A stretch of DNA of 64,000 nucleotides, taken from the NCBI RefSeq assembly GCF_057098645.1, contig NZ_CM169472.1. One strand, written 5' to 3'. Positions 15,001 through 18,000 of the stretch are shown piece after piece; position 1 is the stretch's first letter, and each line of letters begins with the position of its first letter. The position numbers are program-made.

Positions 15001-18000
15001 CCGATCTGCGCGGCTTAAGTAATGACGTCTACTTCCAGGTTGGTTTGCTGACCACCATCGGGCTTTCCGCCAAGAACGCCATCCTGATTGTCGAATTTGC
15101 CGTTGAGATGATGCAGAAAGAAGGGAAAACGCCGATAGAGGCAATCATCGAAGCGGCGCGGATGCGTTTACGCCCAATCCTGATGACCTCTCTGGCCTTT
15201 ATTCTCGGCGTGCTGCCGCTGGTTATCAGTCATGGTGCCGGTTCTGGCGCGCAAAACGCGGTAGGTACCGGCGTGATGGGCGGGATGTTTGCCGCAACAG
15301 TGCTGGCAATTTACTTTGTTCCGGTCTTTTTCGTTGTAGTGGAACATCTCTTTGCCCGCTTTAAAAAAGCGTAACGTGTAAATGAGAGTAAGGTTGAACG
15401 TGAAGGTTCAGCCTTACTCTTTCCTGCTAACCATTCACCACTCAACAACCAGCTAACCGTCAGGAATACCAGGCTTAGTACACAGCACTGAAAGTAGAAA
15501 CCACTCCAGCCATTCGTCATCAATTTGAACAGCACAATACTGACCCACATTCCCGTAATCGTATGAATTGTCAGCTTAATAATCCCAAACATGCCGAGTC
15601 TTTTCCTCCTGAAAATACCTATACCGCCTGGCAAACTGCGAAAGAGAACTAGCCGGTAGCCCGGCAGAAATCATCAGGGAAGAGTTTCACATGAAGCAGG
15701 TGTGAGATCCTGACCAATATTCAAATGCGAAATATGTCAGGAAAAGGTACCTGGCGAATGTTGCGCAAACTGATGTGGCGTTACACCATAATATTGTCGA
15801 AATGTGTTTATAAAGTACGATGTACTGCTATAGCCACATTTTTCCGCAATAGTATGCAGAGGAATTTGACGTAACTCGAGTAATCGTCTGGCCATCGACA
15901 TCCTGGAGGCGAGTAATATTTTACTGAAACAGGTATTTTCATCCTGCAACTTTTTTTTGATTAGACTCTCGCTGGTATACATTCTTTCCGCGATATCGCG
16001 CAGATACCAACGTTTAGCGATATCAAAGCTAATAAGGCGTTCAACTTTTCCTGAAACAGTACTGATGCTATTGAAAAGTAAGGGGATCAGTTCTTTCTTA
16101 TGAGAAAACATCGATAAACAGGAAAGATAGAGCATTTTGCTCAGTATCGGCGAATTTACCCCGGAGTCATTGAAACTATCAAAAATCGCCGTCACCAGCG
16201 GCATGGGGGGTGACTGGTTAATTAACAGACGGTCTTTGCTATGTAACCCTAAATTGCGTGGTAGCTGACGAATATTTTGTAAGTAATGGCAAACTGTCAG
16301 CTCATCGATATCCAGCCGTCGCGTATCCGGTGAACAAAACGCAAAATCGTCTGCCAAATTTTTATCCAGCAGCAGGATACTCTCGTTATGCAGCGATATT
16401 TTTTGCTGTTCATGATAAATATCGAATGAACGACGAATGAGGATCACCGAGCAGACATGAGTCATGATTATCCCTTATATTTCATACTGCGATTATTTCA
16501 ATTTCAGTATACTAATGAAATGATGCCAGACTGTTTCTTAGCGCAAAAACTGCCAGATTTGGTAGGACCAAAATTTATCCACAAAGTAGTTTTGCATAAC
16601 AGTTAATTGATAATAAGTAAATGCAACACGAATATATTTTCGCACAGCGTATAGCTTATGTTTATAAAAAAATGGCTGATCTTATTTCCAGTGAAAGTTA
16701 TATTTAACTTACTGAGAGCACAAAATTTCCCGTGCCAACAGGGAGTGTTATAACGGTTTATTAGTCTGGAGACGGCAGACTATCCTCTTCCCGGTCCCCT
16801 ATGCCGGGTTTTTTTTATGTCTGAGTAAAATTCTATAATCTTATTCCTTCCGCAGAACAGTCAGTGCCGTAAAAATTCCCTTGCGCAACAATACTTGCCG
16901 CCGAGTCACGGTTCGACAATCTCTGCGCCGATCGCTCCTGATACTCTGTGGGCGTCATCCCATAATAATTTCGAAAGACGTAAATGAAATACGACACGCT
17001 GTGATATCCACAGGATACTGCAACTCGCTTAATTGAAAAACCATGTATAACAATAAGTTGCAAAGCACGTTGCATTCTACACTCAGTAAGCAACTGTGAA
17101 TATGATGTCTCTTCTTCGCGCAATTTTTTCTTTAACAGACTTGGACTCATCAACAGCTCGCTGGCGATTCGGGCTAGTGTCCACTCATGGGCGATATTAT
17201 TATTGATAACCGTACAAACTCGTGTTCGCATGTTCGGTTGTAAAACGTTCAGAAGCAGCGGTATAAAGTGCTCATCCTCAAGAAAAACAGATAACAACGC
17301 AAAGATTAATGCTCTTTTACGTAGCATTTCTGCATAGCGAAGATTCTTATTCTGCGATAGTTGCGCAACTTCCTGAAAAACAGGAATATCTCTGCTACAG
17401 TGATGAACGAGTAATGAAGAAACTTTTTTATGTGCATGAAGATTTAATGCCTCCTCCTTGAGCATCGGGAGAAATAATGAAAGTGTGTCCCTTGACACAA
17501 ATACAAAATTTTCAACACACTTATCTACTCGAATTTGGCTTGCATCCGCAAAAACCAAGTCACCGCCATTAAAATAGCGATATTCACCATTAACCATGGT
17601 GAGAATATATTTATGTCTTGCGTACGCAATTAGACAATTCCCATGTAGTGATTGCATAGTTGGCTTAATATTACATAAACATATTACTGTTTATTAATGT
17701 AGCACGCCGCCCTCTTAAGTCAAATTGATTGATAAATAAATTTAAACGAAGCGGGAGAACAGGATGATAATGTGTGATGTTCTACGGGCAGGATGACTGG
17801 ATTTATAATACAAATACGTGTTTAAGAACGCAGGGAAATTAATAGTAAGCAAATAATCCCTTTTCGTGACATTAAAGGCAATCGCTACATTTAATAAACA
17901 TTCATATAACATATATCTTATCAACACGATGAATAGACAGCCAATATATTATTGCGATTAATAAGCAACCGAATGCCCAGCTGTTTTTTTAAAGGCTGGG

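What the first reader, a model, noticed from the sequence alone, without database searches (positions are those of the whole stretch)
16711..16816. GadY small RNA in the gadX-gadW intergenic region
The sequence between gadX and gadW on the plus strand matches the GadY sRNA as I recall it and ends in a stem plus T-tract 17 bp from the gadX stop codon. It is consistent with the known antisense arrangement that stabilises gadX mRNA. The regulatory RNA layer of the acid fitness island is intact, unlike gadA.
Basis: partly seen in the sequence, partly recalled or inferred. Interest (0 to 1): 0.3.

Follow-up and report, generated by a model that had tools for sequence, protein, structure and literature searches.

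The report
GadY small RNA gene, confirmed
This is the well-known GadY regulatory RNA of the E. coli acid-resistance island, in its usual place and apparently intact, so the finding is correct but ordinary; it carries two single-base changes found only in the O145:H28 lineage.

Summary
Window 16711-16816 (+) is the gadY gene. Rfam GadY (RF00122) matches full length at 148.1 bits against a gathering score of 45, E 2.4e-31. It lies between gadW (15737-16465, -) and gadX (16833-17657, -) on the opposite strand. It ends in a 6-bp GC-rich stem plus T8, 17 bp from the gadX stop. The -10 hexamer and the AppY motif over the -35 are the same as in K-12. GadY is 97-100% conserved across Escherichia species, against 59-92% for the upstream intergenic DNA. 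The known mechanism is antisense pairing with the gadX 3'UTR / gadX-gadW intergenic mRNA, then RNase III-assisted cleavage into more stable halves. Expression here is inferred, not shown. Two substitutions (promoter -18 A>G, GadY nt 15 G>A) occur in the same 26 of 5,426 complete E. coli genomes, all those named being O145. The nt-15 change leaves the predicted fold unchanged. gadA is indeed broken, by a private 787-bp deletion. Already known; low interest.

The parts
16711..16816 (+). gadY gene: full-length GadY sRNA, 106 nt as annotated in K-12 (reported as 105 nt in the literature)
   Evidence: Rfam RF00122 at 148.1 bits. Coordinates are K-12 b4452 carried over by alignment, 105/106 identical.
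16708..16821 (+). Extent of the Rfam GadY covariance-model match (model positions 1-114)
16699..16704 (+). gadY promoter -10 hexamer TATATT (-12 to -7 from the annotated +1)
   Evidence: Read directly from the sequence. Identical in K-12 and invariant in 7 Escherichia copies. Assigning it as the -10 is an inference from position.
16672..16679 (+). ATGGCTGA, the ATGSCWGM AppY-associated motif over the gadY -35 region. A candidate -35 hexamer CTGATC lies at 16676-16681 with a 17-bp spacer.
   Evidence: motif and its position described in PMC10057817; identical to K-12. The motif occurs 41 times in the window, so only its position carries weight.
16693..16693 (+). Promoter-spacer SNP at -18 (G here, A in K-12)
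   Evidence: the G allele is in 26 of 5,426 complete genomes
16725..16725 (+). GadY nt 15 SNP (A here, G in K-12), in the internal loop of stem-loop 1
   Evidence: A allele in 26 genomes and G allele in 5,385; no change in predicted fold
16711..16757 (+). Stem-loop 1 (nt 1-47): three stacked helices with an internal loop
   Evidence: Rfam consensus structure is the same as the MFE fold
16762..16782 (+). Stem-loop 2 (nt 52-72), 7-bp stem; a GGA motif sits at the stem/loop junction
16790..16816 (+). Intrinsic terminator: 6-bp stem (5 G-C), 7-nt loop, T8 tail
   Evidence: Rfam structure
16711..16832 (-). Target: gadX 3'UTR / gadX-gadW intergenic mRNA. Positions 16711-16816 are perfectly complementary to GadY by construction.
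   Evidence: Geometry. That this stretch is transcribed and cleaved is from the literature (PMC3919570), not tested here.
16833..17657 (-). gadX (274 aa), AraC-family activator of acid resistance
   Evidence: NF007432 GadX at 597.6 bits, above the cut-off of 500; RefSeq annotation of the identical O145 locus
15737..16465 (-). gadW (242 aa), AraC-family regulator
   Evidence: ORF; AraC-family hits; annotated gadW in O145 RM9872 and K-12 at the same position

Best explanation
Window 16711-16816 (+) is the gadY gene, which encodes the Hfq-binding small RNA GadY of the E. coli acid fitness island. It is transcribed from a promoter with a good -10 (TATATT) and a weak -35. In K-12 that promoter depends on sigma-S and is activated by AppY. 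Transcription ends at the hairpin plus T8. Because gadY lies antisense to the DNA just downstream of gadX, GadY is perfectly complementary to the gadX 3'UTR, which is the intergenic part of a gadX-gadW co-transcript. Pairing creates a duplex that RNase III and other nucleases cut. The resulting gadX and gadW halves accumulate better than the unprocessed mRNA. That raises GadX and, through it, the glutamate-dependent acid-resistance genes (gadBC, gadE; gadA itself is broken in this strain). Shown here: identity, position, strand, terminator, promoter-element conservation and strong purifying conservation. Inferred from K-12 and O157 work: transcription, sigma-S dependence, Hfq binding, processing to the 90- and 59-nt forms, and the effect on gadX-gadW mRNA.
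For: There is a full-length Rfam GadY hit at 148.1 bits against a gathering score of 45, E 2.4e-31. The sequence is 105/106 identical to the curated K-12 gadY and maps to the same coordinates. Synteny is mdtF-gadW-[gadY]-gadX-gadA-ccp, with GadX above its equivalog cut-off. The terminator hairpin plus T8 is found. The -10 and the AppY/-35 motif are the same as in K-12. The locus is present in 5,413 of 5,426 complete E. coli genomes. GadY is 97-100% conserved in five other Escherichia species representatives, where the upstream intergenic DNA is only 59-92% conserved. The nt-15 substitution lies in an internal loop and leaves MFE and structure unchanged at -28.6 kcal/mol. From the literature: three forms of 105/90/59 nt (PMC5686845); RNase III and GadY-dependent cleavage of gadX-gadW (PMC3919570); abundant RNase III-cut dsRNA at gadY (PMC7373196); GadY detected by northern blot in EHEC O157:H7 (PMC7618764).
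Against: No transcript evidence for this strain could be examined. The simple sigma-70 scan does not call a promoter upstream of gadY; by my count the hexamers match 8 of 12, below the scan's threshold of 9. That fits a sigma-S/activator-dependent promoter but gives no positive support. The predicted fold is no more stable than shuffled sequence (z -0.81, 37 of 200 shuffles fold as well). There is no covariation: the only two substitutions in other species break helix-1 pairs without compensation. The structure therefore rests on the Rfam model, not on independent evidence. Two O145-confined SNPs (-18 and +15) fall at positions otherwise invariant in the copies compared, and their effect is unknown. 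The state of rpoS, hfq and rnc in this strain is outside the window.
Confidence: 0.93

Rival explanations
1. The gene is GadY by descent but is weakened or altered in this lineage. The -18 spacer change lowers or re-tunes transcription. The nt-15 change, which sits one or two bases upstream of where the 90-nt processed form should begin, alters processing or Hfq/CsrA interaction. On this reading the 'RNA layer' is not functionally equivalent to that of K-12.
For: Both SNPs occur in the same 26 of 5,426 complete genomes, all those named being O145, while 5,385 carry the K-12 allele at nt 15. nt 15 is G in the six other Escherichia copies compared. If the forms share a 3' end, lengths of 105 and 90 nt (PMC5686845) put the 5' end of the 90-nt form at about nt 16-17.
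Against: nt 15 is unpaired in the Rfam structure, and the predicted fold and energy are identical for both alleles. A cis-antisense target changes with the sRNA, so pairing stays perfect. The -10, the AppY/-35 motif and the terminator are untouched. The allele is fixed across many O145:H28 isolates from cattle, food and patients, which argues against a strongly harmful effect. The placement of the processing site is inferred from lengths alone.
Confidence: 0.05
2. The strong conservation of this 106-nt block is mainly imposed by the other strand. On this reading it is a processing or stability element of the gadX-gadW mRNA, and the + strand transcript is secondary or dispensable.
For: Conservation cannot tell the strands apart. 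The structure has no covariation or thermodynamic support on the + strand. The mRNA strand is known to be cleaved within this block (PMC3919570).
Against: A canonical intrinsic terminator (hairpin followed by T8) exists only on the + strand. On the - strand the same hairpin is preceded by A8 and followed by no U-tract. A conserved -10 sits at the right distance upstream on the + strand. In K-12 the + strand RNA is detected, binds Hfq, and the mRNA cleavage depends on it (PMC11300174, PMC3919570, PMC5686845). The two readings do not exclude each other.
Confidence: 0.015
3. The match is a chance resemblance or a dead relic with no gene.
For: None beyond the lack of expression data.
Against: E 2.4e-31 over the full model, exact synteny, retained promoter and terminator, and near-invariance across the genus.
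Confidence: 0.005

Closest known systems
GadY (IS183; Rfam RF00122; E. coli K-12 gene gadY, b4452)
   Same: Same locus (between gadX and gadW, on the opposite strand), same length and ends, 105/106 identical, same three-hairpin Rfam structure, same terminator, same -10 and AppY/-35 motif.
   Different: nt 15 is A instead of G, and the promoter spacer has G instead of A at -18. Both occur in the same 26 complete genomes, all those named being O145. The downstream effector gene gadA is deleted internally in this strain.
Other cis-antisense RNAs whose duplex with the mRNA is cut by RNase III (lambda OOP/cII-O; type I antitoxins such as Sok, IstR, OrzO)
   Same: An antisense transcript forms a perfect or extended duplex with its target, and cleavage within the paired region involves RNase III (PMC3919570).
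   Different: Those cleavages repress the target. GadY-directed cleavage raises the level of the products. GadY also binds Hfq and has trans roles (CsrA, sdiA), which is unusual for a cis-antisense RNA (PMC7652899, PMC11300174).
ES205, the Rfam match just after gadE in the same island (window 10858-10929); I take it to be the gadE 3'UTR-derived sRNA GadF, from memory, not checked
   Same: A second small RNA of the acid fitness island, also present here above Rfam's gathering score.
   Different: It is on the sense strand immediately downstream of its parent gene rather than an independently promoted antisense gene. It was not studied further here.

Membership tests
GadY (RF00122) | Sequence and structure match to the Rfam covariance model at or above the gathering score (45 bits), full length | tested here: met
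   148.1 bits, E 2.4e-31, model 1-114 of 114, not truncated
GadY (RF00122) | Located between gadX and gadW on the strand opposite to both | tested here: met
   gadW 15737-16465 (-), GadY 16711-16816 (+), gadX 16833-17657 (-)
GadY (RF00122) | The 3' part lies antisense to the region just downstream of the gadX stop codon, giving overlap with the gadX 3'UTR / gadX-gadW intergenic mRNA | tested here: met
   The last T of the terminator tail (16816) is 17 bp from the gadX stop (16833-16835). The geometry is met; the extent of the gadX transcript was not testable.
GadY (RF00122) | Rho-independent terminator at the 3' end | tested here: met
   Stem 16790-16808 (6 pairs, 5 G-C) plus T8
GadY (RF00122) | Own promoter upstream (sigma-S dependent in K-12; AppY motif over the -35) | tested here: inconclusive
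   The -10 TATATT at -12 to -7 and ATGGCTGA at -39 to -32 are identical to K-12. The sigma-70 consensus scan does not call the promoter, there is a -18 SNP, and sigma-S dependence cannot be tested from sequence.
GadY (RF00122) | Transcribed as ~105-nt RNA with processed 90- and 59-nt forms | not testable with these tools
   Forms reported for K-12 (PMC5686845) and a northern blot in EHEC O157:H7 (PMC7618764). No data for this strain.
GadY (RF00122) | Hfq binding and GadY-dependent, RNase III-assisted cleavage of gadX-gadW mRNA that raises gadX mRNA | not testable with these tools
   Literature only (PMC3919570, PMC11300174, PMC10783499)
GadY (RF00122) | Secondary structure supported by covariation or by unusual stability | tested here: not met
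   z-score is -0.81 against shuffles. Across 7 Escherichia copies, 26 of 28 pairs never vary and 2 are broken without compensation. This is not a defining feature of the family, which is narrow and nearly invariant; it limits what can be said about the fold, not about membership.

The most novel reading that the evidence does not exclude
The two substitutions confined to the O145 genomes (promoter -18 A>G and GadY nt 15 G>A) lie 33 bp apart in the most conserved part of the intergenic region. They might retune GadY. They could change its level, or the ratio of the 105-nt to the 90-nt form, because nt 15 lies next to the inferred 5' end of the 90-nt species. That would shift GadX/GadW output and GadE-linked virulence control in this EHEC lineage. 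In the present strain this would combine with a private loss of gadA.
Probability: 0.07. Interest if true: 0.3.

Novelty: already known. Interest (0 to 1): 0.08.

Why it matters
It matters little as a discovery. GadY has been characterised since 2004 and is present in 5,413 of 5,426 complete E. coli genomes. The practical value is for annotation: the RefSeq records of the identical O145 locus list no feature under gadY, so a reader of those records would not see it. The check also puts the acid-resistance circuit of this strain in context. The regulators gadX, gadW and gadY are intact in sequence, while one of the two glutamate decarboxylase genes, gadA, is destroyed. The O145 allele of GadY gives a natural single-base variant that could be used to probe GadY processing.

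Tried and rejected
(1) I tried to read the primary papers: Opdyke 2004 (PMC522195, and first a mis-recalled id PMC523195), Opdyke 2011 (PMC3030618 and PubMed id 21147125) and Parker 2017 (PMC5510166). None is held. The mechanism statements therefore come from secondary citations and my own knowledge of the abstracts.

(2) One search flagged a terminator-like site on the minus strand (16742 to 16729, tail AAATTTTGTG). By my count of T's in the tail it passes the T-count rule only because of the nt-15 SNP. ViennaRNA folding of that segment gives a different small hairpin with the same energy (-7.1 kcal/mol) for both alleles. I rejected the idea that the SNP creates a gadX terminator.

(3) The AppY motif search returned 41 matches against about 24 expected in the window. 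The motif is too short to be evidence on its own; only its conserved position was used.

(4) In one search the two 'CDS' identity columns are invalid, because the regions I extracted from the other loci did not contain those segments. They are not used.

(5) A search for covariation support gave none.

(6) A literature search for GadY together with O145 found nothing about this allele.

Full report
**1. The observation**

All parts hold.

- A scan of the whole window against Rfam 15 gives a full-length GadY (RF00122) match at 16708-16821 (+). It scores 148.1 bits against a gathering score of 45, E 2.4e-31, covering model positions 1-114 of 114 with posterior probability 1.00.
- K-12 MG1655 carries the curated gadY gene (b4452) as a 106-nt ncRNA starting 246 nt beyond the end of gadW.
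- The 367-bp gadW-gadX intergenic regions of the window and K-12 align without gaps.
- Identity within GadY is 105/106.
- The terminator scan finds stem-loop 16790-16808 (6 pairs, 5 G-C, 7-nt loop) followed by T8 at 16809-16816.
- The gadX ORF is 16833-17657 (-), so 16816 is 17 bp from the first base of its stop codon.

**2. Surroundings**

- The ORF at 16833-17657 (-) scores 597.6 bits on the GadX equivalog model, cut-off 500.
- The ORF at 15737-16465 (-) is an AraC-family protein. It is annotated gadW at the same position in K-12 and in O145 strain RM9872.
- The order is chuA...hdeBA-hdeD-gadE-mdtEF-gadW-[gadY]-gadX-gadA-ccp-treF. This is the acid fitness island with the chu heme-uptake cluster next to it.
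- The whole window is 99.95% identical to O145 strain RM9872 (NZ_CP028379.1). It differs by 24 SNPs, one 6-bp indel and one 787-bp deletion.
- The intergenic region is 100% identical to many O145:H28 genomes.
- None of the RefSeq records listed for O145 shows any feature under gadY, and the feature table of RM9872 has none. This is an annotation gap, not a biological difference.

**3. Anatomy**

- Relative to the annotated +1 (16711), the sequence shows TATATT at -12 to -7 (16699-16704).
- ATGGCTGA lies at -39 to -32 (16672-16679). It matches the ATGSCWGM motif that the AppY study places over the gadY -35, where mutating it lowers AppY-dependent gadY-gfp activity (PMC10057817).
- Both elements are identical to K-12.
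- The best -35 hexamer at a 17-bp spacing is CTGATC, a poor match. By my count that gives 8 of 12 consensus positions, and the sigma-70 consensus scan does not call this promoter. That is compatible with the sigma-S and activator dependence reported for K-12, but it is not positive evidence.
- The RNA folds into the three hairpins of the Rfam consensus, and the MFE structure equals the Rfam structure at -28.6 kcal/mol.
- The fold is not unusually stable: z = -0.81, and 37 of 200 shuffles fold as well.

**4. Related sequences**

- The intergenic region is present in 5,413 of 5,426 complete E. coli genomes.
- An exact 27-mer from the GadY core occurs in five Escherichia species representatives, including E. 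whittamii and two unnamed Escherichia species.
- Across these, the GadY segment is 97-100% identical to the window. The 51-bp promoter segment is 86-92% identical and the upstream intergenic DNA 59-92%.
- GadY is thus the most constrained part of the spacer.
- There is no covariation. Hairpins 2 and 3 never vary. The two substitutions in E. whittamii and Escherichia sp. E1V33 break helix-1 pairs without compensation.
- For a cis-antisense RNA this is expected, because both strands are constrained. It means the structure rests on the Rfam model alone.

**5. How it most likely works**

Shown here: identity, strand, terminator, conserved promoter elements, and the antisense geometry with the DNA just downstream of gadX.

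Taken from the literature on K-12 and O157:H7:
- GadY accumulates as a 105-nt RNA and as processed 90- and 59-nt forms at low pH or in stationary phase (PMC5686845).
- It binds Hfq (PMC11300174).
- It pairs with the gadX-gadW mRNA, and cleavage within the paired region involves RNase III and at least one other nuclease (PMC3919570; PMC10783499).
- RNase III-cut dsRNA is abundant at gadY (PMC7373196).
- GadY is detected by northern blot in EHEC, where its level tracks GAD acid tolerance (PMC7618764).
- From my own knowledge of the Opdyke 2004 and 2011 abstracts: expression depends on sigma-S, the overlap with the gadX 3' end is required, and the cleaved halves accumulate to much higher levels than the full-length gadX-gadW mRNA.
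- Trans roles are also reported: CsrA binding/titration that affects pgaABCD and biofilm (PMC7652899, PMC10057817) and pairing with sdiA (PMC11300174).

The two GGA motifs (nt 32 and 58) are present here.

On the minus strand the terminator hairpin is preceded by A8 and followed by no U-tract. This is consistent with read-through from gadX into gadW.

**6. What differs in this window**

Four bases differ from K-12 in the 367-bp spacer.

- Two of them are confined to one small set of genomes. These are the promoter spacer -18 (16693, G) and GadY nt 15 (16725, A). I used 55-nt queries centred on each site, so that megablast's 28-base seed must span it. Each allele is found in the same 26 of 5,426 genomes. 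The 18 of those 26 records whose names give a serogroup are all O145 (O145, O145:H28 or O145:NM); the other eight give no serotype.
- The K-12 allele at nt 15 is in 5,385 genomes, including O157:H7 EDL933.
- nt 15 is G in every other Escherichia copy compared.
- It lies in the internal loop of stem-loop 1 and does not change the predicted structure or energy (positions unchanged; -28.6 kcal/mol for both alleles). Pairing with the cis target is preserved automatically.
- If the processed forms share the 3' end, the 90-nt form starts at about nt 16-17, next to the SNP. This is an inference from lengths only, and I give it a low probability of mattering.

**7. The gadA remark**

- gadA has a 787-bp out-of-frame internal deletion (about nt 386-1172 of 1401) between two copies of the hexamer TACAGG. 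The junction is at window 18250-18255.
- A 40-nt query that can seed only across the junction matches none of the 5,426 complete genomes.
- The deletion is therefore private to this strain, or it is an assembly collapse.

**8. Comparison with the known, and verdict**

This is GadY itself, not a relative. Every defining feature that sequence can test is met. Expression, Hfq binding and target processing cannot be tested with these tools.

- Novelty: already known.
- Interest: low.

Noticed in passing
window 18027-18703 (junction 18250-18255): gadA is a pseudogene. It has a 787-bp out-of-frame internal deletion (about nt 386-1172 of 1401) between two copies of the 6-bp direct repeat TACAGG. The junction is absent from all 5,426 complete E. 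coli genomes, so it is private to this strain or an assembly collapse.
   Followed up: yes
window 16693 and 16725: Two substitutions in the gadY promoter spacer (-18) and in GadY nt 15 occur in the same 26 complete genomes, all those named being O145. nt 15 is G in the six other Escherichia copies compared.
   Followed up: yes
window 16466-16832; NZ_CP028379.1 4244806-4245172: The RefSeq records listed for the O145 genomes show no feature under gadY, whereas K-12 MG1655 has the curated ncRNA. This is an annotation gap for a known sRNA.
   Followed up: partly
window 10858-10929 (+): Rfam ES205 sRNA (101.4 bits, gathering 86) lies 118 nt after the gadE stop (gadE 10213-10740) and ends in a hairpin plus U-run. 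I take it to be the gadE 3'UTR sRNA, from memory. In RM9872 a 'hypothetical protein' CDS (10741-11019, -) is annotated antisense to it and may be spurious.
   Followed up: no
window 49611-49676 (+), next to ldrD at about 49455-49562 (-): Rfam rdlD antitoxin RNA (81.7 bits) sits beside the ldrD type I toxin gene, so the ldrD/rdlD pair is present.
   Followed up: no
window 1155-1186 (-): The Rfam shuA/chuA 5'UTR RNA thermometer (60.1 bits, gathering 58) lies at the start of chuA. The chu heme-uptake cluster sits next to the acid fitness island.
   Followed up: no
about window 46269-47504 (L009 13402-14637): In the near-identical RM9872 record, bcsQ and bcsE are annotated as truncated pseudogenes that abut each other, suggesting a deletion across the divergent bcs promoter region. 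The window has no indel against the reference there, so it should share the lesion.
   Followed up: no
window 43284: The window lacks 6 bp (CGATGG) that RM9872 has, inside bcsB. The loss is in frame. The window also has 24 SNPs against RM9872 over 64 kb.
   Followed up: no
window 57593-57673 (+) and 57769-57842 (-): An naRNA4/REP-type element (67.8 bits) lies next to a tRNA gene that Rfam calls at 57769-57842 and RM9872 annotates as tRNA-Pro (about window 57766-57842), between dppA and eptB.
   Followed up: no
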